Origin: Chromera velia
Lineage: Eukaryota
Reading direction: 5' to 3'
NCBI GenBank assembly: GCA_018398765.1
Contig: JAHBMJ010000214.1
Location: forward strand, 1 to 53,782
Length of the DNA stretch: 53,782 bases
Under the pieces are notes generated by a model, which saw only the letters and a program-made list of their open reading frames with translations, did not search any database and was not told where the DNA came from. Shown in pieces: positions 173-52,442 of this stretch. Position 1 is the stretch's first letter, and every line of letters begins with the position of its first letter. A program made the translations under genes and the position numbers.

Positions 173-1870
173 CTAGTTATTTTGCTTTTGGCTTTGCTTT
201 TCGAGAGCCTCTTCCTCCGCCCGTCTTTTCTGTGCCTCTTCTTCTAAAAAGGTCGCAATTTCTGGAAAGATTTCACCAATTAAAAGTTCCATTTGATTAG
301 AAGGTCCCACTTTGGCTTCCAAAAATTGAATTCCCAGTGCTTGGGCAAAACTTTTCAAATATGCTTTTTGATTTAACGACCCTATCATGAGTAATAACTT
401 CTTTTCCCTACCAACCGAACGACGCAAATTTCTCCTTAAACTGTTAAAATAAGATTCCATCTTAGTGTTTCCACTAGAGTCCACGATTCACTCACTCCAT
501 TGGGAATAAATAAATCACAAATATGTATAGACCACTAGATCAAGTATACGTAAAACAGCCGCAGGTTCGATATTGTTTAAAAATGAATTGACAGTTACGT
601 AGGTTCTAATAAAACTTTGTACTAAATGATAAGGACGCCCTTGTCTTTGAGTTAAAGCTATCTGTAACCTTTCGCCGTTCTGCAAAATCATGGCTGTAGC
701 ATCATCTAATTCAGTTGAGAATTGAGCAAATGATTTTAACTCAATAAATTGTGCCAATGTTATTTTCAAAGGGCCTACCAATTTTTTTATGGGTTTTGGT
801 TGTGCCGCCGAACCAACCCGTGAAACTGATAAACCGACATTTAGAGCTGGTCTTATCCCACTATTAAATAACTCTTGGGAGAGATAAATTTGGCCGTCAG
901 TAATGCTAATAACATTGGTTGGGATATAAGCGGAGACGTCGTTCCCTTGGGTTTCTATTACCGGTAGTGCAGTTAAGCTACCTCCTCCTAGAAAAGACGT
1001 CAACTTGGAAGCGCGCTCAAGTAGACGAGAATGAAGATAAAAAATATCGCCAGGATATGCTTCGCGACCTGGAGGACGACGTAAAATCAGTGATAGCTCC
1101 CTATAAGCTTGAGCGTGTTTTGAGAGGTCATCATAAATAATCAGACAATCATGCCCACTGTACAAAAAGTACTCAGCCTGGGTTGTTCCCACGAAGGGTG
1201 CAATATACTGTAAAGCGGCTCCGGCATCAGAAGCTGCATTAATTAAAACAGTATATTTTAAAGCGCCCCCTTCTTCCAAAACTTTACGAATTTCACCGAC
1301 CGTTACACTTCGTTGTCCGATATTTACATAAATACAATATTCAATGCCGTCAACGCAATTTTGATTAAGTATGGTGTCAATTGCAATTGAAGTTTTTCCC
1401 GTCTGGCGATCTCCTATAATTAATTCACGTTGACCTCGCCCAATAGGCACTAAATTATCGACAACTAAAATACCCGTTAATACAGGTGTGTCCACGGACT
1501 GACGCATAATTATGCCGGGGGAGGCGGTCTCGATTCGTCGATAAGGTAATTTTTTTTTTGATTTTTTGGTGTTAGCCGAAGGTAACTTTAATATAGTTCC
1601 CAAAGGATCTACGACACAACCTAATAATCTTTTACCCACTGGTACTTTTAATAAGTGTTCTGTAGGTCAGATAGAGGTCCCATTAGTCAGTGAAATTAAA
1701 GCTAAGGGTTTTCCGAGTAACAAGATGCAGGTTTCTTTCTGACTTAGGGTAAGGGCGATTCCTTTGTACCCCGTATCAAAAAGAACAAGCTCGCCTAATT
1801 GTAGCTCTGGTAATGTTTTGCTTAGTATGACGCCATCTGACGCTTTACAAAGAGAGGTATTGCTTGAAAT
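173..1870 (-). CDS. atpA: ATP synthase CF1 alpha subunit, about 565 aa with UGA=Trp; probable ATT start; divergent extended C-terminus
   Basis: Motifs [29 protein letters not shown] and [10 protein letters not shown]. ORFs 515-1639 and 173-484 join in frame through TGA. The frame is open upstream through [23 protein letters not shown] to a TAA at 1871-1873 with no ATG. TAG stop at 173. Confidence 0.93.
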
Positions 1871-2999: not shown

Positions 3000-3596
3000 T
3001 TACAGACTTCAAAGATTTTTGTACATTTTTTAAAAACTCGCAACCAACAGAGATTTGAGCTTTATGGCTCAAACCTTTTCCTACAACTAGTAGGCTAGCG
3101 AGGATCCTTGCTATGTGAAAATTAGGACCCGCGGCAGAAATGATATCTCTAAATCTTGTCTCCACTCAGAAAGCGCGTCTTCTAAGGGAACGAGTTGAAA
3201 TACCATAGGTATGAAATGACGAACAAGTTTCAAAGCTTATGTTTATTTAGGGATTCGTTCATTCTGAACTAAATCAGGAACTGTCCTTGGTAGTGTACCC
3301 TCCGCGTACTAAAAGATCCTTGTGTGAGATTATGAGGCGGGTTAAGACTTTCATCCAATAATGTATATCGCTAGAAACCAACCTGCGAAGATGGATTATG
3401 TGTAACCTCCAACCCCTCATGTTTCTCTTAACCGACCTTAATCAACTCCTTTTCGTGTAAAAAGACATTCTGTCTATTCAAGTATTCGGGAACAGATTAT
3501 TTCTATACACTTCCAAAACCAAGGCTATCATAAGCTTCGAAGCTTATTGTGTAAAAACAATAATTAACAACACACCGAACCTATAAACTCCTTAGT

Positions 3597-3707
3597 TTAC
3601 CGCAATTTCTTTCCTCGAAAAAGTTGGCCATAAGATAAAATATTTAAGCCCACAAACACTACAGTCAAACACCCTATTATAATGCCAAACAAAAGAGGTT
3701 CGTTCAT
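3597..3707 (-). CDS. petG: Cytochrome b6f subunit V (36 aa)
   Basis: MNEPLLFGIIIGCLTVVFVGLNILSYGQLFRGKKLR matches PetG (MVEPLLSGIVLG..GL....Y.Q..RG). Confidence 0.88.
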   Translation of the reverse strand: MNEPLLFGIIIGCLTVVFVGLNILSYGQLFRGKKLR

Positions 3708-4108: not shown

Positions 4109-5278
4109 TTAGGCCGGAAATATAGATAGTAATCATAGCCATCAAGGTATAGGTGTGCGTTTTTTAACGGGGCCTAGAGACGTAGGCTTTAAAAAAGCTT
4201 TGGTTGAAATTTCAAGATCCCAACCTTTGGTTAAAAAAGGAATCTCGTTGGCATAAAGTAGACGAAGATCTTTTACATTGTTTAATCATGATTTGGGAAC
4301 TTGTGCCAAATGTAAAAATGGGATATGATCCACCATTCAAAATCACGGGGTGGGTAGTTTAAATTCTAGAAATTTATCTACTGTAGTCAATGGTATATGC
4401 GCCTGCTTAAACAGATCGTCAGATGGAGAATCAAGCTCCAGATAAAATCCAGGTTTATGAAAGATTCGAAGTTTTTTAATATTTTGGTGTCAAAAAGATT
4501 CGTTTCATGTTAGTTGGCAGTCTTCCGGTTGGTTTTGTATTCCTTTTCTTCACCAGGTTGGCGGGGTGCATTTAAACTGCGTGAAAAAGTTAACTCAGCG
4601 GTCACGCGTTCTAAATATCGCGCGTTCACTATCACATTGATATCATTCGTTATTGAAGTTTAATCAATAATTCGGATAATAAATATCAAAGGTATTTTTT
4701 TTATGGTAAAAAAGCCTTAATTCACTTCTGACTAATGGCGGAAGAAATGCCTTGCGTAGCACCAGTCTAGCAGGGCGTAGTTCATTACTTTGCGTCCGAA
4801 TAACATCTTCCCGTATACGAACGGGCCCCAAAATTCGATAAGACCGGTTTCAAAGTTTCTGCGTAGAAAATCATGCAGCTTCTTCTGCATTTAATTTTTC
4901 TCGATATCCAGTAAGAAGTAAAATTCAATGCTTTTGTTCTGTAGTCACCAGTTCTATTAAAAATCGTGAATCCGGTAAGTTAGCACAATCTCAATCCATA
5001 CCAAGGCCGTAAGTCTGCGGAACGCTCGCCTTATCGCGTGGCAACCCTCAGTCGTCCTTTAGCTTAAAGAGTAAACGATAAGTGCAGTAGGAAAAAAACG
5101 ACCATAAATATTCTGCCTGACACTTACTTCGAACGTTTAAATTAAATATTTGATGATCCATAAGCTTACATTTAACAACCCTCCTCTGAAGCTCGACATA
5201 AAAAGGGAATTTATTGAAGGCCGATTGCTTATACGAATTAAACGCATATGTTGCAGCCAACTTAAGACGAGTTAACAT
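4109..5278 (-). CDS. Hypothetical protein, 389 aa, Trp/Phe/Arg-rich orphan ORF
   Basis: ATG at 5278, read codon by codon with TGA=Trp, stays open to TAA at 4109-4111. Same strand as its neighbours. No family recognised. Confidence 0.75.
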
Positions 5279-5877: not shown

Positions 5878-5982
5878 AAGTTTAATTTTAAAATTTTAGG
5901 TATAATCGTTAGTAACGGGTATAAAAACGTTCTAATATTTTTTTATTATTCTGTTAAACAGTAAAAAATGTTCTAGGACCAA

Positions 5983-6056
5983 GAGCTTGTAGCTCAATGG
6001 ATTAGAGCGTATGGCTACGAACTATAAGGATGGGGGTTCGATTCCCTCCAAGCTCA
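5983..6056 (+). tRNA. trnR: tRNA-Arg(ACG)
   Basis: GAGCTTG/CAAGCTC acceptor, anticodon arm TATGG-CT ACG AA-CTATA, GGTTCGATTCC T-loop. Confidence 0.93.
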
Positions 6057-6980
6057 GAACATTCAAATATAGCTTACCTTAGTTTTCACTAAACATTTCA
6101 AATTCGACTTTTTCTAGTCTATCGTGTGTTTTTAACTTACGCTTTGAATCTTCTGAATTCTTGCTATACTTTTAAAGAACCACCCCTAATGCCTCGAATT
6201 AACAAAGCCAGAAAAATTAAATCCTAGACCTTGCCGGACATGAAAATTTTATTGAGTTTTAATCAGAAACCCAAAAAAACGAACACTAGAGTTTATGCAT
6301 TTCAGAAAACTAGGGTTTGTAATCGTTAACAGCAATAGAAAGTTTGTAACCTTTTAACGATGACTTTTATTCTCCCTAAATTTTAAGGAGCAAATGCAAT
6401 CGCAATAAAGATCGGAACTTATATACTTTCTTTACTTTTTTTGCCTGTTCTAGTTCGAGCCCAGTTGGATGAAATAATCTACTTTTATTTAAATGGGCTT
6501 CTGCTGGATGGAGAGATGTTTCTGAACCCCAACTTCACCACCTTCAAACTCTTAAATCTCTCTGCAACACGCTTAATTTGCATAAAATTTCTGTGAATTG
6601 TAAAAACGGTCTCAAAGTCAAATGAAATAATAGAATAAGTATCGAGATACAGAACAAACATTGATTTAGGTTTTTAATTAAGTTGTTCGAAAACCAAGCT
6701 CATGAATGTCCTGCGGGCAGTTGCGTTCAACTAATTGCCTGTCTTTCCAAAATTCTTTCAGGGCTTGACTTGGTTGGCGGCGGGTAGCTCTGGCGTGAAT
6801 TTCCCGTTTTGAAACGCAGCCAGACTCAAAGCTGTACGACCTAACCAAAGTTTAGTAACAGTGTACATCTTATCTTAAATTTTAAATCTTCTTTTTAGTT
6901 TCTAAGTAAATTCGAAAAATGGTTTAAGGGGCCTATTCTCCGAGGCAAAAGACCCCCCAGAACTAACTCCTAAAAACTGA

Positions 6981-7943
6981 CTAAAATCTTCTTCGATAGA
7001 CTTGGCTGATTCGATATTTGAGGCCTAACATCAAACTTATGGTGAATAAGCTAAGAAATAGTTGTACCTTAAGCGCAGGATTGTAAACCAAACGACTACA
7101 AAACAAGCCTCTACTGATTCGAAACCAATCCCACGATTTGCTATAAGAAATAAACCAACTAACCCCATATCCCAGGCAGAGATCATGACGATATAATGCA
7201 CTTTGATCTAAATTACAGTTTATAAAATGTATTCACAATGGAATATAACAAAGTGTCTGGGATAATCAGTTGAAGAGTGCTTCGACATTGGACGCTCGTG
7301 CAATATTTCAGCTAAACCCCCACGGATCAGTATTTCCAGAACTGTCCATTACCAAAATTTTGTGAAAAAATTCGACATTTACGACCGATGAAAAAGTTAC
7401 TGTAAAGGCAAAATTAACCGTAAAAGCGTTCTCTAAACCATAATTCTGAAAAAAACTTGTATATATGAGCGTCTGGTATAAGTAACCTTTTGTTATTTGA
7501 TTAATAAAACTACAAATATGATCGGTATACATGTCCTCGCTTTTTGACCCATAGTCTAAAAATGTTAAGAGGCCTAAGTGAACTAAACTTATATGTACAA
7601 TGCCTGCAAATATTCCGGATAATTGTTCTGACGTTTTGTACATATAATGTTCTTGCAAATTGGTTCGTAGAACGCTTAGAGGCCCCCCTCATTTTTGGCC
7701 CAATAGTTTGATGTAAAAGAATTGATCTAAGAATGTACACGTTACAAAAGCTAAGCACCATAACAATAAAGTTGCATCCGCAGGTCAGGTATAAGGAAAA
7801 AACAGACTTTCCACTAGAACGTGAGTTAAAATAGGCGCTCCGCTGGCCGTAATAATCTTTGGGAAAAACAGTATAAAAAAAGCCGTGCCTATTAATACTG
7901 CAAAAAATTTTATTTGGCTGAGTTTTAACATACTTCGATACAT
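6981..7943 (-). CDS. ccs1: Probable highly divergent cytochrome c biogenesis protein Ccs1/CcsB (320 aa from ATG 7943; 325 aa from TTG 7958)
   Basis: Frame open from 8042 to TAG at 6981 with UGA=Trp. Ordered Ccs1-like motifs: LKLSQIKFFAVLI, YTW..LLLWCLAFVTCTFLDQ (cf. SLISCTFLQQ), GIFAGIVHISLV (cf. GRIAPIIVHFSMI), C-terminal YNP followed by a hydrophobic helix (cf. DPG). Confidence 0.6.
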
Positions 7944-8610
7944 TAGATTCAAAACCAATCAGTTGTCGCGGAGATTTCTTGTAAGGATTCCACGAAGGCC
8001 TGCGTTGCAAAATATTCGCGAAATATCTAACCCATGCCACTCCTAAATCTCATCATAGTGTTAAATTTTTCTGGTTTAACTTATTCGGAAAAAGCTTTAA
8101 TTCTCTTGTCGTTCAAAGGCTTAATGACTTGCTGCACCTCCAACGATGTTTTAAATTTCTAAGACACATCTAAATTATAAAATAAAATTTTTAGTCTGCT
8201 TATGATTAAATCCCCAAAAATGGCCCCGCAACTCTTTCTCAGCATTTGAAAGTAAAGTACTTACCTCTACCCCTCCTTTGGTTTTATCCAAATACGGATT
8301 TTGCTATGACATGCTCTTGCTTTTGACAAGTTTAATGTTTGTAAACCTGTGAATCAGGTTAATCTTTTACTATATTTAACTATCTCCTGACAAATTCGGT
8401 AGGTTTTTAAGGTCCGAGTATTTATCGGTACAAATGTTGCGACTGGTTAGACTTCCCAAATACAGTAAAAATTCTACCTTTTATGTAATAAACACCTATT
8501 TTGAGTGAGCTATAAGTACTGGATTGCAATGATTTCTAAGAGAATTTATTTTGTTGTGCTGTGTAAGATTACGAAGGGCGTTAATTTTCGTTCTTCCTCA
8601 TATTTAATTT

Positions 8611-8693
8611 TATACCTAGATGGATTTGAACCATCGATTCCATTTGGAGCTAGATTATGAGTCTAGTGCTTTCGACCTCTCAGCCATAGGTAT
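8611..8693 (-). tRNA. tRNA with CAU anticodon and long variable arm (likely trnI-CAU lineage, often annotated trnM)
   Basis: ATACCTA/TAGGTAT acceptor, CTAGA-CT CAT AA-TCTAG anticodon arm, long extra arm, GGTTCAAATCC. Confidence 0.85.
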
Positions 8694-8721
8694 CCTATCT
8701 TTGGTTTAATACATGCAAAGC

Positions 8722-11437: not shown

Positions 11438-12574
11438 TTAAAAAATAGTAAATAATAACTCACCCCCCATATTAATAGTTTGGGCATGCTGTCAATGGAT
11501 TAAGCCTTTGGACGATGATAAAATTACTAGACCAAAAGGGAATTTACGGTTTAAAGTGTGCAATTGCCGTGCTCGAACATGCGGGTGTTTAGTGATCGTA
11601 CTTAATTGTTTAATTTTTATATGGCTAAGGGTTTTTAAGGAAAATCGGGCATCAAATTCTATTACAATAAAACTTTTATGCTCACCCGTAAATCAAGTTA
11701 TTTCTCTCATAAATGGTCACTGCTTTAATATTTTCAATCATTGATAAGTTTTATATGTTGCAGGTAAGAAACAAAACCTTTGATGATTAATGAGTGAGTT
11801 TCTAAAGAGTGTACAAAAATTGGCTAAACTATCTTTAATCAAAGGATTTTGTTGACGCACTTTCGTGGTAATCAACGTGTGAATTTCCTCAGGCTCTTCT
11901 AACATCTGTTGCTTATCCAAGTATTGTTTCTTTTTACCGGAAAGTGGTGGCGATTTAGGAGGTCATAAAGAAGCCTCTCTTAATTTTCTTGCAAGAGAAA
12001 AATTGCGAAACGCAACGGAGGAAAGATCTCCAGTTGTTTTTTTGGTGGCTTTCACCTTATATTGTGTAAAAAAATAACTTGGAAACGAATATCGTGCAAA
12101 CGGTAAAAGAACTGGTAACCAAAAAGGCGAATCCTTAACAGTTATACATCGTTTCTGTATTTTCAGGTTCTTTTTGCTATTACGCTTGTGATAGGTTCGG
12201 TTTTGTAACGCTCAGAACATCGCTTGAGTTAAATAGGAAAATTCAGTCATGTATTTGCGATTCAAGAATCTGTAAGCAATTTGATACGCTCATAAGGGGT
12301 AAGCTAAGACAAAGCCTTCTCCTGCTGATGTTAATGACCGCACCCGACGTGCGGAAAAAGGTTGAAAACTTCTAAGATACCAACGCGAGCTCTTACGACT
12401 TAAAGAAGTATTAAGTTGTAGGCACGGATGTCTATATAAAGTTTTGGGGGTGCCTCCAGCCCCAAAATAGAAGCGCTTTCTTCTAGATCTCACGAATTTT
12501 CGCTTTTTCGACAAAAATTTTTTAAAGATGGGATTCTTTCTATAAAAAAGGGATGAGATACGAGGAAAAAACAT
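11438..12574 (-). CDS. rps8: Ribosomal protein S8 with about 245-aa basic N-terminal extension (378 aa)
   Basis: S8 core from IKDSLANFCTLFRNS to LSSSKGL..A....GGELLFTIF. ORFs 12290-12586 and 11738-11920 are one continuous frame with TGA=Trp. Confidence 0.85.
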
Positions 12575-12645
12575 AGAAAGTTCCAAGCGCTATTATCACA
12601 TCACGTTTAATACAAAGTTAAAGCTGGACATCTTAGTTGAAGGAA

Positions 12646-15037: not shown

Positions 15038-18000
15038 TTATGAAATGGTATAAGTAGAAACTTTAACGCCAAGTATACCCTGTTTGGTTTTTCAGGGCAA
15101 AGAAGCGTAACCTATCTGATCTGTTAGGGTATTTTTGGGTATGTTCCCTTTAAACCCAACGGCCAATTTTGTAAGCTTCGAGCGATCTGCTTTTTTACTT
15201 AAGCGGCCAGAAATTTTAATCAGAATGTCCGACATGATAGCAAGTCCCACACCTGCGGCCGCATTATACGCTCTTCGTTGTTCATTGACCTGAATTTGCA
15301 ATTCTCTTCCCACTCTTCTATAGGACATTCTATTACGTAGAGTAAAACCTACTTCATGATTAATTGCTACAGGATGTAAAAATGACATTTTAGTTTTTAA
15401 GTGTGAAATTTTTATGAAAATATTGGTTTTAAATTTGTACTCCATGTAAAACTTTCATTGAATAAATCGCCTAATAATCCGGGATCACTGGGTCCTAGCT
15501 AAAGTACCCCTTAATTTTACGGCTCAGGTCTCGAGTTTGGGCCCGATCTGATTCATATTTAACATTATATATTCTCAAAAATGTTGGTCTAATAACTGTA
15601 TTGTTCGAAAATTCAGACTTGGGGTATTGATTCGGAACTTTCTGACGTTTTCTCGCGCTTTTAATCTAGCTTTGTAAAAGTATCTGCGTTTAAAACGACG
15701 TTTCATTTTATATTGCACTAATGTTGTAGGCATCCGGAATGCCAACGGCACACTAATAACTTTAAGATACTTTTTACTTTTCTTAGCGGGCTTTCATGCC
15801 GCGTTACCTAACCCTGTTTTTCTTCCGAAAGAACGATGAAATACTGGGTTCTTATGGTATTGACGTTTAAGCAGCAAGCCGATGTGTCACGATCCTAAAA
15901 ATTTTAGTTTCCGGGGTGCAACCGGTTTTAACGAAATCATCTGAACTTGAAGTTTTCGTTGTAATCTTGTATAAATAACTTGGAGGTTTGTAGTAATAGA
16001 TGTATGATAAAGATCCTTACTTAAATTAAGAACCATTAAACGCCGAAGCATCTGATAAAATTTTCAAACAATAGACGTCCAGGTGGTCACGGGATACCAA
16101 AAACCTAGCGGATCTCAAGCATACCGAGGACTGTTTAAGATGGCTAGAGGAAATCAGGTTGGTTTATGTTGTTTCCCTTGATGGCCTAATTGACTTAAGA
16201 TAATTTTACAAAAAGGTGGGACCGTAGTTGAGCTCATACACCTAGGGGTTTTTTGTACATAAAAAGGACGGCTTGTTAGTCAAGTCCTAAAGTTTAACTT
16301 AGTTTTTTGTTCCAACAAAGGGTGAAAATATTCAATAGTTTCTAACGTACTAACCACTCACCCTCTTGGATCCCTTCCCCTCATTAAATATCGGTTCAAC
16401 CAAATCATTAAAAGTTTGTTTAAATATTTTCGATGTTTAGACTTAGCTTTGGGACCTCACCTAAGTTTATACAACTTGAGGATACCAACCGGAGGCCTCC
16501 ACCCATTGAAAATTAAAATATTTCTGCCGGTTTCATTTCCACTAAGCACTAGCCTTGGTAAATGTGTTACAACGTGGTGCCAGTGAAGCACAACACGCTT
16601 TTGAGGTAATGTTAATACCATCACATCCGCTCAGAGAAAAAGTTGCTCTACGTCAAGGTCTTGATGACTTACCCCTAAAAAATAACGCGTGACTTGACAA
16701 ACTTTTACAGAACCCATTCACAAAAAATTTTGTGATCACAACTCATCGTTACATAATTTCACAAGGATAAAATCAATTTTTAGGCGAAATCCAACTCAAG
16801 GCAAAACGTTTTGTTTTTTCATACATAAGATAAATTTAGATCAAAAAAACCTTCCTACATATTTAGCCCTCGAAGCTAAATAAATCAGTAACGATAAAGG
16901 CACCTCAGCTTTTCGACTCGTCAGAGAAGAAAAATATAGCTTTTTAAAATAATAAAGAGAAGTTTGGAGATAAAACTTTCTTATGTTAAAAATCTCACTC
17001 TTTAGCCCAATGAGCGGTCGTAGGTTTCACACCAAATAATGGGCCAGGGTGAGCGGATTAACATATGCGAATTGAAAAGTAGAGACACCTCGAGAACAAC
17101 TTGACTGAATAGCGCCAACTCAAAAACTAGGCAAATTTTCATACGCACTTTTAGAATCAAATTTTCATCATGATTCTCTAGTTAAACGAAGACACGGACT
17201 TAGGTCTTGATCCACAACATTTTTTTCATCCAACACTTTTTTAGATGAACAAACTTTGAAATTTAACTGCGTAAAGATAAGCCAATTACTTGTGAATCCA
17301 GGATGGAGTCTTCTTTCTCAAAAATAATAACAAAAGAATAGGGATCCGAGTTTTCTAAGAATTTTCATTGGTAATGTTAATACAGCTTGGGATTGTGCCA
17401 CTAATCAATAATCACGACAGGAACGTAGTCTGAAATGAAATCTATGGATTCAGTATCGAGACTTGTCTAGATTCGACTCTGGACCTTTTTTTAAACAAAT
17501 TGTTTTAGAGCAAGCTTCACTGAACCACCAACTTGGCCCAAAAATAAACCATAGTGACTTGCCGATTTTCGCCCGAGCCATTTTACCACCTAAAAGATTA
17601 GGAACCAGAACCTGTCTCAAGTTTAAGGCAGCAATTTTTTTAGCGGAAAGTGGTAACGCATTATGAAGTTTTACTATGTTATGCATCATTAAACACGGTT
17701 TAAGCCGCTTGAATATAGGGCCCTTGAAGGCACCTTGCTTTTTCGATAGGGCCTGTAACTTAAATACATACTGTAAAAGTGTCTTTTTGGATACCTGAAG
17801 TAAGACTCGATGTTTAGCTTGGAACTTTCCTGCGAGCGGAGTAGTTCTGGAAAACCTAGGATTGTTGAAATTTCTTGGGGTACCAAGAACTAAACTTTTC
17901 TGACTTTTACGTACAAACATCTCATGTGCAAAACTACCAGACCTAAAAGGAGCTAACTTTCCTTTTAACCCTTTCAATTCTTGGGTGGATGACACAAGTT

Positions 18001-18112
18001 TGGTTCTATGGTCAGGGAAAAAAACAATATCAGATTTCATTCTGGATACAAAGAACCACCTAGATCACAAATTACGGCTAAAAAGTTCAAATTTTTTTCT
18101 TGTACTAGGCAT
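15038..18112 (-). CDS. rps3: Giant ribosomal protein S3 (1024-aa frame)
   Basis: C-terminal S3 domain (IKISGRL, G.IP..TL...I.Y, KTKQGILGVKV) directly upstream of rpl16. Possible S3 N-terminal motif MKKQNVLPWVGFRLK at 16822. No TAA/TAG from ATG 18112 to TAA 15038. Confidence 0.85.
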
Positions 18113-24625: not shown

Positions 24626-27600
24626 TTAACAAAGATTAATTATAAAACTATTCCTTCAATTAGGACCAGGAAATCGTTTTCAAACCACAGATGAACTAAT
24701 AATTTCATATGGCGTAAAGCCCGACGAAGATTCTCTCTGTAGATTATGGAGATGAGGCACAGTAGCTTTTATTTTAAACTTTTGAAGTTTTTTTCAAAAG
24801 AGCTGTGTATAGATATACTTCACTAATTCTTTATTTAAATAAATATTTTTTAAAATATGGTTTAATGAAGCACGGTAGGGAGCCACCCGGACAGTATCAT
24901 AGATACTACAGACGAGATTTGGCGCATAAGTCATACAATTGTTTACTAAGATATGTTTCTGTGTAATTAATTTGCGGGCTGCTAAAATAGACGGGGCAAA
25001 ACCGAGCCTATAAATTAAACTATCTAAACGAAGTTCTAATTTGGCTAATAATTTTAATTTAAAATTAGCTTTAACACTATCTCGGCGACGAAGGTAATTT
25101 TTTAATTGATGATCGGTTAGATTATAGTAAAATTGAATTTTTTGTTTTAACTTTAACCGATGCAGAAAAAGTTCTTTTAATTTTAACCCTCAACCTGTAT
25201 CATAAATTAACCGATAGGGAAAACAACTTAATCAGCGTAAAAATCCTAACGGATGAATTAATCCCCGCTTAAAATTAGAGTAAAAAACTAACAGTTTACA
25301 TTTTAACTGATATAATCCTTTAATCCCATTTCGTCAACGTCGTGTTTTCTCATCAGTATGTTGCCCAGGGAGCATAGGCACCCGAAAAGGGCTTGGTATA
25401 GAAGGTTGCTTTAACTTAAGGGAGGACAATTGATTATATTTATACATTTTAGCTCACAGTTGACTAATACTATGCCTGTAGATGTGATAAAATACTTGTA
25501 GCCAACGCCTCATTTTCTGCTCAATAAAAAAACTTGTCCCATTCAAAGGTTTTGACAACAACATCAAACTTTCGGGTTTTGCTGTTAGATGTAAAGGGGC
25601 AAGAAGATCTTTCATTTCATACATCATTGGTTTATTTTTGACAGTTAGTCTAGAAGCCGTTTGGTCTAGAATAGCTAAACGCTCTGCTAGCGGAGACTTC
25701 GTATTCACCACGGGGTAAACTTCCAACCGCGGTTGGGTTAGTGTCTCACAAGAAGGCCTCAAAACTAAATGGTGTACCGGACTCCGCTCTTTGGAAACAC
25801 GCCCATTTCCTACACTATCTAAAAATCTAAAATACCTGTACAAACGTAGATTCTGCTGCCTTTTATATTTAATTTTTTGTGAATTAAGTCAACGATAAAA
25901 AGTAATTTTTTCTTTACACACATAATTCCTTTTCGTCATCTTTATAAAACTAGGAAAAACCGAAATTCAAAGCCTTCGCCCCGGAAAAAACATGTTGCGA
26001 TAACTCAAGGAAGTTTCTGTTCTCGGCACTTTTAAAAGTTTACCAGGGCGCTTATACAATTTTGTACCATCTCTCCTCATTAAATCTCCTCAGACAATTC
26101 TAGACCTGTGTGATGGGCGCTTTGGGAGCCGTGGACGTTTAATCGGCACCTGAAAAATCCCTCGTATACTTCGAGCCCGGCCATGGTGATTTAGTCAGAA
26201 TCGGTTACAATAATATAAAATCAATTTAGCCTGTATTAAATTACGGCTGCGGCAAAATCGAAACTGCGAAGAAAGCTTAGGGATAGGTAGGTCTCAATTA
26301 TGGTATGTTGTTGGGGTCTCGAATTTGTTGAGTCTATAAAGATTCGTGTGGTTAAAATAGAATCTGGGTTCGACGACCTGAGATGAATTCGAAAGCATAT
26401 TTCGACCGGCCTCGAAAAGTAGACGACCTCCAGGAAAAAAGCCATCTTCTTTTCTTACGTAATTGAAAAAGGGTTCTGAATTAGAAAATATAAGTCGCTC
26501 CCGTCCGCATGTGTTAAGGTCGGAAAATTGAGCTATAAAAGTCTTCAAATGCTTGACTGTTCTTCGCAGCACTTGTGATCTTATGAGTGACCCATAGTTG
26601 CTTTCCGAGTTTTTAACTCTAAAAAAGACTTGGCGAGCTACTCGTGATACTTTGTTATTCTGTAACGTCAGATCTAAAACGCCAGAGGATATAAAATCAG
26701 AATTTAATGCATAAAATGTTTTTGCTTTTGCCTGGTAAAAATTGAAAGGAAACGATACTAAACCAATAAAACCACCTCGGTAACGAAATACATTATCAAA
26801 AGTTTTAGTGAGACGATTAACGCTACTCAATATTTTTCCGGATCCAAAGGTGGCAGGCACTCTCTCTATGCACGGAATTTGAAATTTAGTACCTCTGCCC
26901 AAAGACTTGACTCGGTATTTGTTAGCAAACCGAATCTTATTTCAGTAACTAAAAAAGGATAAATCCCGCGTTGTAATACCACCAACTTTTGTTTGGAACT
27001 CCGGTTTTTCTCTACTTTCACACAACGTTTTCTGCGTTTCTTTTCAAGTCTGCAATCAGGAAACTAAAAGTAGATCATCACACAATTGAGGACAAAGCCC
27101 CTGTTTTACTATTTGTAACTGCCAAGTTTTACTTCATAGGTGAGATCATTTCTTAATAAACAAATGTTTCATAAATAAATTAGTCCCTAAAGGTAAAAAA
27201 GGTAGTTGTCGATCCAAATTCTGTTTCTTGTATTTAGAAATACCATGTTGAAAAATGAGGTTTAAATCATGGGCTTTAGATTTACGAGCCGGGTAATGGC
27301 TAAACTTTCGCTGCCAGAAAAAAAACCATGGGCATTTCGGATAAACTTTAGTCTGAAGAGCTTGAAAAATCTTTTGTGGCGTTATTCGCGTTCGTTGAAT
27401 CGGCTTATACTCGACATCTACCATTAAAGTAACCTCTCGGGATAGCCGCTTTCATTTTTTTCACTTAGGTATATCAACCTCATCAAATCTATAATCATAG
27501 AGGGATTTATAAACCGGGTCATAAAGGAGCGTATTTTTATATCTTAAACCAAGATATAAGGATCGGTCAATATCTGCTCAAAAGTTATGTAAGAATTTTT

Positions 27601-30600
27601 GCGGTCGTCACGTTTGAACTCGTGAAGGAAATTCGGACCGTGCCAGTTGTAATAAGTTTGCGTTTGAAAGATGGACTAGGTTGTTTCATTTACGCTGACT
27701 GAGCACAGCAGGTTTACGCGGCGCTTTATACCATCAGTTGGGCATATAAATTTTAGGTCCTTCCAGTCAAAGACTTTTGTTTGTTATCTTTCGAAGAATA
27801 TTCTGAGGGATAGGTTTTCTTGGGTTGATCGGTCAGAAGCGATGAAATCATCAACGTTTCTGCCAAGCTTTATCATCCATTGAATTAACGACTGGTAGTT
27901 CATACATAACTCGAGGTGATATGTGTTTTCATGTTAATAAAGTACTAACATCGTTGGTCTTTCGCCTTACTCGTGAATCAAATCATTGCCCTTGAAATCT
28001 AGGTCCAGGCCAAATTTGGTTTTTACCTTTGATCTGCAACGCCAACGTCATATAGAGTGAATAAGGATCGAAAAGTAACCGGGGCTTATAAACTACCGCC
28101 GAATTCAAAGGTAAACTGGAATCTGCCTTATATGTACTATGAAATAGGATTGGTACAACTGAGGATTTTAACCTGTCCACTTTTCATAGGCTGGAAGTTT
28201 CTGCATCATAGAAATTACCCACTGACTTACGGATCAGGGATTCCCTAGAGTTCATCTTTCGCCTTTTGAAGCTACTCTTATTGGGATTGGTCCGTAATCT
28301 CAGTTTTTCATTTTGAGCAAATCAACTATTTGATTTTAGTATACTATCCAAGACTGGTTGTAAGGATTGAAGAAAACTGTGGAAAGCCTCAAGTCCGTTT
28401 GGAATATATTCTTCTCTCAAAACACAGCCAAGCCTTTTTTTGTTCTTATGCAAGTACTCACGACAGTATATGTCTTTACTATTAAATTTTTTTCAAGTCC
28501 AAAGGACTTTTTGAAGTTTAATAATTTCTCTCTTAACGTTCGGGGTGTAGAAAGATGAGTGCCCAAAACGGCTGGAAAGTCAGGATTTACGACGACTAAT
28601 TTCTCTTTTGACATCTTCCATTAAGTCGCTAATTACTTGGAACCTATGCCAAATATCTTCCATAGGTATAGTATGAGCTTTTAAATTGAAAGGCACAACA
28701 TATCGGTCAGTCATAGAGAATGGTAGTACAACGTGCTTATAAAGATCTATGAGGTAAGCTTTTTGGGGTTTCGATCAATTACGCCAAAATTTCTGAATGT
28801 CCTTAATTCTTCATTTCATAATTAGCTTGTCTTCCTTTTCAAGGAATGAATTCGCTCAGAGCTGTAAGGGACGAGAGTTTCATACTGATCTCTTAAACTT
28901 AGTAGTTTGAGGAGTTTCAAATTCTAATACTTGGTAGGGATAATTTACCGTGTTTCTCATTTGTTTTATGAAGCCTCCAAATCCATACTTCGATTTCTTA
29001 TTGTTAGATATAAATGAGGCAAGCGGAGGCTTATGTATTATTCTTCTTTTCTTTTGCGGTTTTTTGTCCATTTTAAGAAATTTCTTTTCATAGAACTCAC
29101 TCACTCGGTTAATTTTTTCCTGCACTTGCGCTCGAAGTCAATAAAATGAGCTATAGCGCACGTTTTTTCAGTTTTTATTATTTCAGACAGAACGAGCATA
29201 TAGTGATTTATAAAGACTACCTACTTTATGGCTATAATTTTTAAGCAAAGTTCCATAATTTTTTGATGCCGTATTCTTAAGCATTTCTGTATATTCAATA
29301 TTGAGCTCATTAATCTGATGTCCCGGCTTTAATCAATTTTTAGAAAACTTACGCTTCCAATTTTGTCGACGTTTGGAAAACGAACGCTTCAAATGCGTTC
29401 GTCGGTCGAGGACGTAATGATGTGAAGTTTTTGATCTTTTTTGTGGAGAACTATTGTAAGTGTGCAGTAATGTATAAAAAGATCCTACATTATAAATGTA
29501 GTTTTGAAATATTAATGCTTTAATAAGACCAGTCAGTTTTGTTAAAATAAGCCGTGCCATTAATTTCTTGTATAAACGAGGAGCTCTTAGTTTCAGTACT
29601 TTAGAGTTAGCATAGTAAGCCTTGAGTTTGTTAATTGACTGTCCAATACTGAATTTTGGCGAACTATTTATTAGGCATGTTTTTTGAGAGGCCCCGCGAT
29701 AAATTTTTCAGAGATTATACGCGGAAACATTTGCTTGTGAATTTACAAATGTATAATAACGAGGGAGTGTAGGAATATCACGATTGAGTTTCCGATCACA
29801 CATAAACCCATAATTTCTTCCTTTAAAATACTGCGCCGACTTTTTACTATCACATAAAAATTTCGGGAACTGCAGTGTTTGTTTCTTTATAGACCGAAGA
29901 GCAGCTTTTAAACGCTGAAATCTCTTAATCAACTTAATGAATCTTAGGGTTCGTGAGAAGATTATCTGACTCTGGAAAGTCCCCTTACATAGCATCCACT
30001 TTGCGATAGTTTGAGGTAGTATTCACTCGCGCGTATTGTACTTACGCTTGTATAAATATTTTGTAAAGTTGTTATAATTTCTTAAAATTAAAACAGCCTC
30101 CCTATCACCACAGAAGGACGACAAAGTTTGAGCTCCAAAAAATTCTAAATTGTTTGGACGAAGTGTAAAACTCATTAGGGAAGTTTTAACCGCGCTTAAA
30201 TGAATCGAGCGTCGTAAAACTTTAAATAGACGATATTTTATAACGTTATTGATAAAGCTCATTTTATTCGGAAATGTGTAATAACTTTCAAGACCTTGTG
30301 TTTTATGACATCAAGTCTGGGGGCGCAATAGTGGTCCCATAATCTCCTGACGACGTATAGGTGAAGTTTGAGGTAATCGCTTAGATCAAGGAACAGTAAT
30401 TTTTTTTAAAGCTTTTATATTACGTCTATAAATTCTTAACATTGTTAAGCATTCGGGAATGGAAAGTGTTTTTAATCGTTTCCATAGCGCTTGCCAGGCA
30501 AATCTATAATCATATCTTGTTGTAGAAGGGTAACTGTAGATTTTTCCTTGGGCATCGTCAAATGGGTCAGGTCCCACAGGTCCTATGTTAACGGCAATAT

Positions 30601-30844
30601 GACTTATGGAGTAACTACGCAAAACCCAGAAATAAGCTTGTATTCGTTCTCGAAGTTTGCGTATCCTAAGCTTTTCTGGTAAACGCTTAAAGGGAAATTG
30701 CTTTCAGTGTCTTACAACTTTGGGGGTACCTCCAGGTAATAAAGTAAGATGTAACTTTCGTAAAGTTTTTATTACACTTTTATAAGTGTTTTTAGAAGAT
30801 CTTCGGGCAAATTGTTTTTTCTTTACAAATTTTTTAGAGGGTAT
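24626..30844 (-). CDS. rps4: Giant ribosomal protein S4 (2072-aa frame, probable ATA start)
   Basis: N-terminal KTLRKLHLTLLPGGT (cf. RIVRRLG.LPGLT) near 30750. PGQH near 25365, then RLKLKQKIQFYYNL and LELRLDSLIYRLGFAPSILAARKLITQKHILVN. The intervening frame has no TAA/TAG. Confidence 0.88.
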
Positions 30845-31766: not shown

Positions 31767-31840
31767 GCACTCTTAGTTTAAGTGGTGAAAACATAGATTT
31801 TCAAAATCTAGTATTAAGGGTTCGAGTCCTTTAGAGTGCG
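31767..31840 (+). tRNA. trnW: tRNA-Trp(UCA), UGA-decoding
   Basis: GCACTCT/AGAGTGC-G acceptor typical of plastid trnW. Perfect TAGAT-TT TCA AA-ATCTA anticodon arm. Ordinary 74-nt size, not tRNA-Sec-like. Confidence 0.92.
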
Positions 31841-47504: not shown

Positions 47505-49196
47505 ATGTCAATACCTTCCGATTTTGAACGTAACCAGTGATCAAACCTGCCCAACCGCAAAGCATCTTCACGACACAAAAAGGTTAGAGATAATCGTCCT
47601 ACTACCTCTAAAACTACTAATTTTAGTGTTTCCCAGAAACCTTTGGGTAAGCAAATACCAGAATCGAGGACGGTAGAAGGTCCATTTAAGAAGCGGAAAC
47701 CTTATAAATGAAAGAGCAAAAGGTCTGAAGTGAGAACAGCTGATACAAAGGCTTCTTCTTTGGGTTTAACATCGTTCAAACTAACAAAAACAAGGAACTT
47801 TAAGACACTGTCGGGGCAAAAAGGACCAGAATTGAGGACGGCTGACGTCCCATTTAAGAAGCTTAAACCTTATACACCAAAGAGCAAAATTTCTGAAGAT
47901 AGACCAATGGATAAAAAGGCTTTTTCGTCCGTGGCCGCACCGTGAAAACCAACCAAAACTATGACCTATAAGGTCTCTAAGAAACTTTTCGGGAAAAAAG
48001 GGCCAGAATTGAGAATGGTCGACGTCCCATTTAAGAAGCCTAAACCTTATAAATCCACGAGCAAAATCTCCGAAGGAAGACCAATAGATAAACCTTCGGG
48101 GGCGACATCGGTCAAACTAAACAAAACTAAGAATTTTACTGTCTCTGAGACCATATTAAGTCAACAAAGATCAGAATTGCCCGCGTTAAAAAGCCCAGAG
48201 AAGAAGGAGGAAAGGTATGAACCAAAGAGCAAAATTTCGGAAGGTAGACCAAATGATCAAACAACGGCTTCAGCGGGTAATTCATCTTTAAAATCCACAA
48301 AAAATATGAAAATTGACGTGCGCGGCGCAAAAAAAAAGAAATCCTGGGATCATGTTAGTCGAATGATTCAAATGTATAAATCTACCGTGTGACGCCCAAC
48401 GCCTAAAGAGTTATATAAAACGAATTATTTTACGGATTTTTTTGATGCGTATCCTGCCTTTAGACGAATTTTAAAACAGGATCAAATGGCAATCATTATT
48501 TTATACTTTCAACTGTCAAGAAAGAATACTAAGATTAGTATAATTCAGTCTAATGAAGCGATTCACTTAAAAGTTATTCGAACCATTGATGCTACCACTC
48601 CTTTGTATGGAGAGGTAGCAGTTTTTAATTTAGAAAAACGATTAGAAGGACTAAGATTTTTACCTCAGACGGTCAGCTTTAATGAATTATATATTCAAAA
48701 ATATGCTATTTTAGCAAAGCTAAAAACCTTTATCACTTATTATTCGCAAAAATGAGCAAGTGAAACGTTTTTAAACTGAAGTCATCCAAAGACATACTAT
48801 TTTTTACATAAGTATAACGTACCATATGATTATTTAAAAACGTTTAATTTTGACGATTTAACACAAGCATTTCGTTTACCAAAAAGAAAATTTGTTCGAC
48901 GTTATGAACGATTACTAACCTGTTTTACTGCTGGAATGCTACGTTTAGTAGGTAAACGCCGGAGTACCCCTTTTGCTGCAAGAGAAATTACATCTAAGGC
49001 TATTCGTTATATACGAAAACATGATTTTGTTTATGTAAGAGTCTTTTTTCGTGGAGTTTCAGCTAATCGAACTTACATTATTAGGACTTTATTTTCGACA
49101 AGTTATTTTGGATCAGCTTTAAAAATTCTATCTTTAGCGGATATTACTTCCGCTCCTTATAACGGCTGTCGTCCAAAAAAATATCGTCGCCGGTAA
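47505..49196 (+). CDS. rps11: Ribosomal protein S11 with repeat-containing N-terminal extension and internal insertion (563 aa)
   Basis: ILYFQLSRKNTKISI, TAGMLRLVGKRRSTPFAA, DITSAPYNGCRPKKYRRR. Four track ORFs share one frame joined by TGA. Confidence 0.88.
47605..48310 (+). repeat. Four degenerate coding tandem repeats of about 55-60 aa within rps11
   Basis: Consensus KT.NF.VS...G...PELR..D.PFKK.KPY..KSKISE.RP.D recurs four times. DNA-level similarity includes CCATTTAAGAAGC in three copies. Confidence 0.9.
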
Positions 49197-51113: not shown

Positions 51114-52442
51114 ATACCACGCGTCTATAAAAAATGAACGTTTGTCCATAAAATTTTTTATGATTTACGTCTTTTCACTAAAGAGAACGAAGGTCGTATT
51201 TTACTAACAGGAAAATTAAATTATTTTATGGTTAATCGGATACAGCGTCGAGGATGCAACTCGTTGGCTCGGAAAATTTGAAGTAAAACTTTATTAAAAG
51301 TAGAAAAACAGTTAAACCGGTCTATTAAAGATATTCTAGAAGAGATCTTTAGATTTTTAATTCCTCCAGTTGGAATTACTTTTCTTAAAAAAGCTAACCA
51401 AGTGACAGAATTACCTGTTATACAGCCTTATTATCGAGCGGTTCCTATGGCTATAAATTGAATTTTAGAGGCTGCAAGAAAAAAGAGGGGTGTGAAATTT
51501 GTAAATGCTTTAGTAACAGAGTTTGTGGACCTGTATAATTTTACTGGTGCGGCTAGTTCACAAAGAAATAAATATCTACGTCGAAGTCTAGCTGCAGAAG
51601 AAAACTTTCATCTACTTTATAGATTACCAAGACGTCGGTTACCTACTCAACCAGCTGTTGTAAAAAGGGATACAGTAACCTCAGAAGAGACAAGTAGCAT
51701 AGATTCATCTTACGCTGTAAAACTATCGACGCGCAAGTCTTCTACTTTCTTCCCTGTTCCACGAGCTAAAAGTTTTTCCAAAGAACAACTGAAAAAACAA
51801 AAAGTATTTTATAAAATTCAAGAAAATCGAAGATATAAGTATGGTGGACGATTTTATTGATTAAAGAAATTATACAGGTCATTTCAAAAACTTGTACCGT
51901 ATTCTGTCTTACTATTGATATGACATAGAACCTTGGTTCGAGAATATAGGTTATTTACACCTGAATTGTTAAGCACTTTATTTCTTAGTTCGAGCCAGAC
52001 GTTGGGATATTTTTGAAATTTATATTTTTGGCAAAGTCAGACACTTTTTACGGCTGTCGAGACTACAGCCCTACTATTTCCGGACCGGAAAAAAAAAAGA
52101 AGAGTTAACTGTGCTTCTGTACCTGGCCCTTTGCGGCCGCACATTTCACAATCTGGATCACGGTCGCTAAAATCTTTTATGTTCAAGCAAAAAAAACCTA
52201 GGAATCAAGGTAGAAAAGCTTCGCATATAGAAGATTTAAAAAAAATAGCTGTAGAAAAACCTCCGGTAACAAAAGGAATACCTTTAACAGAAGGAGTTAA
52301 ACTAAACATCATGAGAAGGTTACGTTGGACAAAAGACTCGAAGTCGTTAATCCTTAGAAAAACTGCAACGCCAAAGCCTAAGCGACCTAAACTCCAAAAA
52401 ATACTTCGGTCTACAAGCCGACACCATAAGAAGGATCGATAA
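51114..52442 (+). CDS. rps7: Ribosomal protein S7 with about 285-aa C-terminal extension (442 aa, probable ATA start)
   Basis: MVNRIQRRG..SLARKI, AINW(TGA)ILEAARKKRG, AEENF. Follows rps12. Frame continuous to TAA 52440. Confidence 0.87.

What the first reader, a model, noticed from the sequence alone, without database searches (positions are those of the whole stretch)
6981..7958. Cryptic ccs1 (system II cytochrome c maturation) hidden as an orphan ORF
Seen: a 320-325-aa membrane protein frame visible only with UGA=Trp, masked by a longer alternative-frame ORF in the track. Known: Ccs1/CcsB has three N-terminal TM segments, a conserved CT motif after TM2, a functionally important His in IVH.S and a late DPG plus hydrophobic segment. 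All appear in order (VTCTFLDQ, GIVHISL, YNP-helix). Inference: a shortened, very divergent ccs1 that pairwise annotation would probably miss.
Basis: partly seen in the sequence, partly recalled or inferred. Interest (0 to 1): 0.7.

Follow-up and report, generated by a model that had tools for sequence, protein, structure and literature searches.

The report
Missing Ccs1 hidden in plastid orphan
An unnamed gene in the chloroplast genome of an alga related to malaria parasites is a real protein-coding gene under purifying selection, and it is likely a shortened, extremely altered Ccs1, the heme-delivery partner that this alga was reported to lack.

Summary
The window is a photosynthetic plastid genome that reads UGA as Trp. 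The ORF at 6981-7958(-) is real and is the published unassigned orf325 of Chromera velia. It is under purifying selection: contigs of two runs give 11 synonymous against 8 non-synonymous changes (pN/pS 0.20, p=5e-4) and put a stop in the overlapping rival frame. It is probably Ccs1 (about 0.7). For: same 3+1 hydrophobic layout; CT..Q, the invariant His and a beta-cap-like block in family order; forced-global alignment to 61 Ccs1 gives z about 6, above 113 of 113 unrelated decoys; signal rises bacteria<cyanobacteria<plastids. Published tables list ccsA, petA and psbV in Chromera, no ccs1, and Ycf44 (recalled: = Ccs1) as absent. Against: Pfam, local HMMER, hhalign and fold searches all fail; Bacillota ResB scores far higher (z about 23); the late DPG block is unsupported (p=0.81).

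The parts
6981..7958 (-). orf325, 325 codons from TTG (320 aa from ATG at 7943, the likelier start); probable divergent Ccs1
   Evidence: purifying selection; N-terminus from M6 lines up with plastid Ccs1 starts (by eye)
7851..7907 (-). hydrophobic segment 1 (aa 18-36), predicted TM1; the family's IEQ motif after it is absent
7722..7784 (-). hydrophobic segment 2 (aa 59-77) ending in C74-T75-x3-Q79, matching invariant CT..Q of Ccs1
   Evidence: block p=0.03
7557..7613 (-). hydrophobic segment 3 (aa 116-134) with H122 (7593-7595), aligned to the invariant Ccs1 His, predicted heme ligand
   Evidence: block p=0.006 at width 20; role of the His from PMC10663686 and PMC5526843 passages
7293..7424 (-). 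aa 179-222, predicted three-strand beta region aligning to the lumenal VN.F..QFYSDLS.....G block (likely beta cap)
   Evidence: strands in the alignment-free AF2 model at pLDDT about 43; block p=0.05; aa 141-255 z=4.2
7020..7079 (-). P294 and hydrophobic segment 4 (aa 295-313), followed by a basic tail (5 K/R in aa 314-325); sequence match to the DPG block not supported
   Evidence: K/R count read from the sequence
7510..8169 (-). overlapping 219-codon frame, most likely spurious
   Evidence: 9 of 10 changes non-synonymous, one a stop; codon score -0.009; no family hit

Best explanation
orf325 is a protein-coding plastid gene under purifying selection that likely encodes the Ccs1 (CcsB/ResB) subunit of System II cytochrome c maturation, about 100 residues shorter than plastid Ccs1 and too diverged for standard searches. 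It would sit in the thylakoid membrane with four helices (both ends stromal), pair with the plastid-encoded CcsA, give His122 as one of the two ligands of the membrane heme site, and hold a trimmed lumenal beta domain over the CcsA active site, so that heme is passed to and attached on cytochrome f and cytochrome c550. Shown: coding status, hydrophobic layout, motif order, alignment signal. Inferred: orthology, topology, heme binding, partnership with CcsA.
For: Coding: 11 syn / 8 non-syn of 19 listed changes over 926 covered nt, pN/pS 0.20, p=5e-4, best of six frames, no stop or indel; frame best of six for codon usage. Layout: 3+1 hydrophobic segments as in 7 of 8 plastid Ccs1 examined. Alignment: forced-global score against 61 Ccs1, 0 of 400 full shuffles reach it at 6 of 8 gap settings; z 6.0 ranks 2nd of 116, behind only a true PF05140 hit, the best of 113 unrelated decoys being 4.1; 0 of 10 other family profiles give full-shuffle z above 1.3; two separate parts carry signal, aa 1-140 z 5.4 and aa 141-255 z 4.2; z 2.1 / 3.7 / 5.4 against bacterial / cyanobacterial / plastid profiles. 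C74, T75, Q79, Y107, H122 fall on invariant columns and are unchanged in the variant contigs. Need: ccsA, petA, psbV listed for Chromera, ccs1 only for Vitrella; Ycf44 reported absent from Chromera in the nuclear genome paper. Other genes of the window are also badly diverged (secY 51 bits, rpoA under cut-off).
Against: No PF05140 or NCBIfam hit; local hmmsearch does not lift it above other window frames (5th with A1, about 42nd with A2, of 545); hhalign probability 3-4% local, nothing global; signal falls to z 0.9-2.5 with stiff gaps and vanishes in 3 of 4 ends-free settings; bacterial ResB gets z 15-24 in the same test; IEQ and GLQIK.DPG motifs missing; at widths 16 and 30 the His block prefers H46, not H122; MAFFT-add test weak (23 of 75 columns, 1 of 40 shuffles reach it); no fold match to CcsBA; variant contigs change T57 and V181, which align to conserved positions; codon bias the weakest of 26 frames scored.
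Confidence: 0.72

Rival explanations
1. orf325 is a real but lineage-specific thylakoid membrane protein unrelated to Ccs1; the CT and VH motifs are chance matches in a four-helix protein, and Ccs1 is nuclear and undetected, or replaced.
For: All standard profile and fold searches fail; unrelated decoys reach z 4.1; only itself found in two large protein collections; the genome holds other orphan ORFs such as orf389.
Against: Ordered motifs at the right helix ends, two separately scoring regions, and a gradient towards plastid profiles; membrane decoys secY, atpI, petB, CcsA, Lgt, CcdA give z of at most 2.4; Ycf44 not found in the nuclear genome study.
Confidence: 0.2
2. orf325 descends from ccs1 but has lost or changed the job (for instance only a membrane scaffold for CcsA), with cytochrome c maturation done by CcsA plus other factors.
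For: Loss of IEQ and DPG motifs, deletions of about 23, 27 and 39 residues between anchors, divergence beyond that of bacterial ResB, weak codon bias.
Against: The one residue that the literature calls invariant and essential, the TM3 His, is kept; selection holds along both halves (pN/pS 0.19 and 0.21).
Confidence: 0.06
3. The ORF is non-coding or a decayed pseudogene, or the overlapping 219-codon frame is the real gene.
For: Weakest codon bias and TGA:TGG 5:5; no poly(U) site and rank 58 of 78 in published coverage; variant contigs have depth under 6.
Against: pN/pS 0.20 with no stop or indel; the rival frame takes a stop and 9 of 10 non-synonymous changes; 9 of 19 changes are seen in both runs.
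Confidence: 0.02

Closest known systems
Plastid-encoded Ccs1 (ycf44; the synonym is recalled) of red-lineage algae, incl. Vitrella brassicaformis
   Same: Plastid location with ccsA in the same genome, 3+1 hydrophobic segments, CT..Q after TM2, Y..G......VH at TM3, beta-rich lumenal block; 18-24% identity in the multiple alignment
   Different: 320-325 aa against 418-450; no IEQ loop, no GLQIK.DPG, ends right after helix 4; undetectable by HMMER where plastid Ccs1 share about 40% identity. Vitrella Ccs1 itself could not be fetched.
Bacterial ResB/CcsB (Pfam PF05140) and fused CcsBA
   Same: Predicted TM3 His (TM-His2) and beta-cap-like region (PMC10663686 passages)
   Different: No Pfam hit; z 2.1 against a 4-sequence bacterial profile; no fold match recovered
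orf325 of the Chromera velia plastid
   Same: The same gene: published primer matches at 7533-7550(-), same length, neighbours psbT, psaC, orf389
   Different: Published as an ORF of unknown function; the ccs1 assignment and the selection test are new here as far as my searches reach

Membership tests
Ccs1/CcsB/ResB (PF05140) | Profile score above the Pfam cut-off | tested here: not met
   no family at E<=1; own 61-sequence HMM E=0.016 for one comparison, below a CcsA decoy
Ccs1/CcsB/ResB (PF05140) | Three N-terminal TM segments, a long soluble domain, a late hydrophobic segment | tested here: met
   hydropathy 18-36, 59-77, 116-134, 295-313; prediction only
Ccs1/CcsB/ResB (PF05140) | Invariant His in TM3 | tested here: met
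   H122 on the invariant column, block p=0.006 at width 20; other widths prefer H46 or give p=0.07
Ccs1/CcsB/ResB (PF05140) | CT..Q at the end of TM2 | tested here: met
   best local match; block p=0.03
Ccs1/CcsB/ResB (PF05140) | Lumenal beta-cap domain | tested here: inconclusive
   strands at 179-222 in a low-confidence alignment-free model; p=0.05; z 4.2
Ccs1 of cyanobacteria and plastids | GT.IEQ after TM1 | tested here: not met
   IEQ absent, loop about 23 residues shorter
Ccs1 of cyanobacteria and plastids | GLQIK.DPG...SQIW block around the last helix | tested here: not met
   p=0.81, tail z 0.16; only the P-to-SQ spacing of 24 agrees, seen by eye
Ccs1/CcsB/ResB (PF05140) | Fold match to solved CcsBA | tested here: inconclusive
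   models pLDDT 40 and 55, no match; true cyanobacterial Ccs1 also has no PDB sequence hit
System II cytochrome c maturation | CcsA partner and c-type substrates present, no other ccs1 | tested here: inconclusive
   met in published tables; no whole genome was held, so not searched directly
System II cytochrome c maturation | Heme ligation and complex with CcsA | not testable with these tools
   needs experiment

The most novel reading that the evidence does not exclude
orf325 is not Ccs1 by descent, and Chromera really lacks Ccs1: it would then mature cytochrome f and c550 with CcsA plus a newly evolved plastid-encoded four-helix partner carrying a convergent His, a System II built on a non-homologous subunit.
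Probability: 0.1. Interest if true: 0.8.

Novelty: new variant of a known kind. Interest (0 to 1): 0.5.

Why it matters
Ccs1 is the essential partner of CcsA, yet the chromerid genome paper reported Ycf44 (recalled: Ccs1) absent from Chromera, which would leave its c-type cytochromes without a complete maturation machine. If orf325 is Ccs1, that gap closes, one orphan ORF is named, and the protein becomes a natural minimal Ccs1 showing which parts (TM1-3, His, beta block) suffice and which (IEQ loop, DPG block, about 100 residues) do not matter. It also warns that other reported gene losses in this fast-evolving plastid may be hidden in its remaining orphan ORFs.

Tried and rejected
No hit: Pfam E<=1, NCBIfam E<=10 except a weak RoxB row, PDB sequences, 5.8-billion protein search and 1.84-billion representative search, self only, metagenome scan with the ORF, viral contigs with the Ccs1 alignment, earlier scan findings. 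The search for shorter proteins gave only 7 Ccs1 fragments. hhalign global gave a 5-column overlap, 9 and 18 of 100 shuffles as good; the script timed out before the local part. The AF2 model built on alignment A3 has pLDDT 70-89 over most of aa 1-135 but is driven by the Ccs1 rows, has no control, and A3 misplaces the C-terminal helix, so it is not counted as evidence. Fold searches gave only generic helical matches, Z<8. No RNA holder is listed on record; X6 and X7 are only guessed to be RNA, so their cover is not used as expression evidence. Environmental runs X5, X10, X11 hold pieces of the ORF region without differences and add no variation. Rfam and repeat scans of the flanks show only tRNAs. 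Literature: no paper pairing Chromera with orf325 or assigning it ccs1; the two primary plastid genome papers are not held, and supplement files 13-16 of PMC4501334 were not searched, so a prior naming cannot be excluded. No ccs1/ResB term in the supplements of PMC6668581 and PMC9847631. No language-model look-alike search was obtained for this protein, which leaves that line open.

Full report
Setting. The window holds atpA, psbH, petB, psaC, psbT, secY, secA, atpI, atpH, rpoA/B/C1/C2 and ribosomal protein genes and 16 tRNAs, one with anticodon UCA. All 5 TGA codons of petB align to invariant Trp in 10 cyanobacterial PetB. It is a photosynthetic plastid genome with UGA=Trp. A primer for ORF325 in the supplement of PMC3894158 matches once at 7533-7550(-), so the ORF is the unassigned orf325 of the Chromera velia plastid. 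No whole genome was held.

Observation. The frame 6981-7958(-) gives 325 codons from TTG, 320 from the ATG at codon 6, with 5 TGA. Under table 11 its longest piece is 126 aa, while the overlapping frame 7510-8169(-) leaves 179 aa. Hydrophobic segments lie at 18-36, 59-77, 116-134 and 295-313; 7 of 8 plastid Ccs1 examined show the same 3+1 pattern.

It is a real gene. Contigs of runs X6 and X7 (same species label, one study, depth 2.5-5.3) cover 926 of 975 nt with no indel and 19 listed differences in the ORF, 9 seen in both runs; one further difference in record 1 is not listed. In the ORF frame 11 are synonymous and 8 not (pN/pS 0.20, binomial p=5e-4); both halves agree (0.19, 0.21). The other five frames give 0.49 or more; the 219-codon rival takes 9 non-synonymous changes of 10, one a stop. 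Codon usage also picks this frame of six, though with the lowest score (0.046) against 0.083-0.243 for 24 named genes. Published coverage is 617, rank 58 of 78, near rps7 and rpoA, without a poly(U) site (PMC3894158 supplements).

Standard homology tests fail. Pfam, NCBIfam and PDB give nothing useful; two large protein collections return only the protein itself. I built Ccs1 profiles from 24 of 29 cyanobacterial loci (5 with odd starts left out) and 37 full-length low-GC plastid-like genes chosen from 120 metagenome loci. hhalign finds only the CT block (probability 3-4%, P 0.012-0.015), and local hmmsearch does not separate the ORF from 544 other window frames.

Whole-length tests give a signal. 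With a forced-global profile alignment to the 61 sequences, 0 of 400 full shuffles reach the score at 6 of 8 gap settings (z 3.6-6.8), 5 and 9 of 400 at the two stiffest; shuffles within 10-residue windows, which keep the hydropathy pattern, give z 0.9-4.4. An ends-free version showed it in only 1 of 4 settings and hhalign global not at all. Among 115 decoys (55 window pieces, 60 locus proteins) only L115 outranks it, and L115 and L110 are true PF05140 hits; the best of the other 113 has z 4.1 against 6.0. Against 10 other family profiles the ORF reaches at most full-shuffle z 1.3. Residues 1-140 (z 5.4) and 141-255 (z 4.2) score separately, 255-325 does not (z 0.16); these cuts were chosen after seeing the alignment. 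The signal grows from bacterial (2.1) to cyanobacterial (3.7) to plastid (5.4) profiles. But four bacterial ResB score z 15-24: if this is Ccs1, it has moved further from plastid Ccs1 than Bacillota ResB has.

Motifs. C74, T75, Q79, Y107, V121, H122, F183, F197, W217, W242 fall on invariant columns of the 55-row alignment. In 29 ungapped block tests, uncorrected, the His block gives p=0.006 at 107-126, the CT block p=0.03, the QFYS block p=0.05; at two widths the His block prefers H46; ordered chains give z 0.3-3.6; the DPG block gives p=0.81. Anchor distances show deletions of about 23, 27 and 39 residues. The alignment-free AF2 model (pLDDT 40.5) places three strands at 179-222, where Ccs1 has its beta block. 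Fold searches found no CcsBA; the models are too poor for this to count either way.

Biological need. The table of PMC3894158 (supplements 2 and 3 read) lists ccsA, petA and psbV for Chromera and ccs1 for Vitrella only. [quoted passage not shown] PMC5526843 (passages) describes CCS1 as poorly conserved apart from an invariant essential His, in complex with CcsA; PMC10663686 (passages) places TM-His2 in TM3 of CcsB and a beta cap in all CcsB. PMC5643376 (passages) stresses the extreme divergence of Chromera plastid genes; secY and rpoA in the window show it too. PMC4603697, PMC3716797 and PMC7511666 were searched for terms only and add nothing on orf325.

Mechanism and verdict. Most likely (0.72) orf325 is Ccs1: four thylakoid helices with stromal ends (basic C-tail, inferred), H122 pairing with the CcsA His to hold heme in the membrane, a trimmed lumenal beta domain over the active site, serving cytochrome f and c550. 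Because the Pfam cut-off and the IEQ and DPG motifs were tested and not met, I do not file it as an established PF05140 member; it is a probable, strongly remodelled orthologue. A lineage-specific unrelated protein remains possible (0.2). I found no print assigning orf325 to ccs1, but the primary genome papers were not readable. Interest 0.5: it would close a reported gap in an essential pathway and supply a minimal Ccs1, within a known system.

Noticed in passing
window 4109-5278 (-): orf389: Trp-rich orphan (16 TGA, 4 TGG) with gene-like codon usage, a hydrophobic C-terminal tip and published coverage 4714 (rank 26); no Pfam, NCBIfam or PDB hit and no Ccs1 signal. A candidate for another 'lost' gene.
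   Followed up: partly
window 173-1870 (-): atpA: the frame runs about 48 codons upstream of the listed TTG to an Ile codon right after two stops, with AtpA-like sequence; a non-canonical start or a shortened N-terminus.
   Followed up: partly
window 24626-30622, 15038-18112, 47505-49196, 51228-52442, 11438-12586: Hugely extended ribosomal protein frames: rps4 1998 aa, rps3 1024, rps11 563, rps7 404, rps8 382, with the family domain at one end.
   Followed up: no
window 31767-31840 (+): tRNA with anticodon UCA, called SeC by ARAGORN, most likely the Trp tRNA that reads UGA.
   Followed up: partly
window 7510-8169 (-): A 219-codon stop-free overlapping frame, longer than in any of 500 shuffles (max 208), yet not under selection.
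   Followed up: yes
window 6195-6226 and 8056-8087: A 32-nt, 75% complementary inverted pair flanking orf325, 1829 nt apart; may be chance.
   Followed up: no
window 5900-8700, runs X6/X7: These runs differ from the window at about 2% of plastid sites, mostly transversions and third positions, i.e. a distinct variant under the same species label that could give selection tests for the other orphan ORFs.
   Followed up: partly
window about 3500-3610 (-): A short petG-like frame (MNEPLLFGII...) between petB and orf389, below the ORF list's length limit (name recalled).
   Followed up: no
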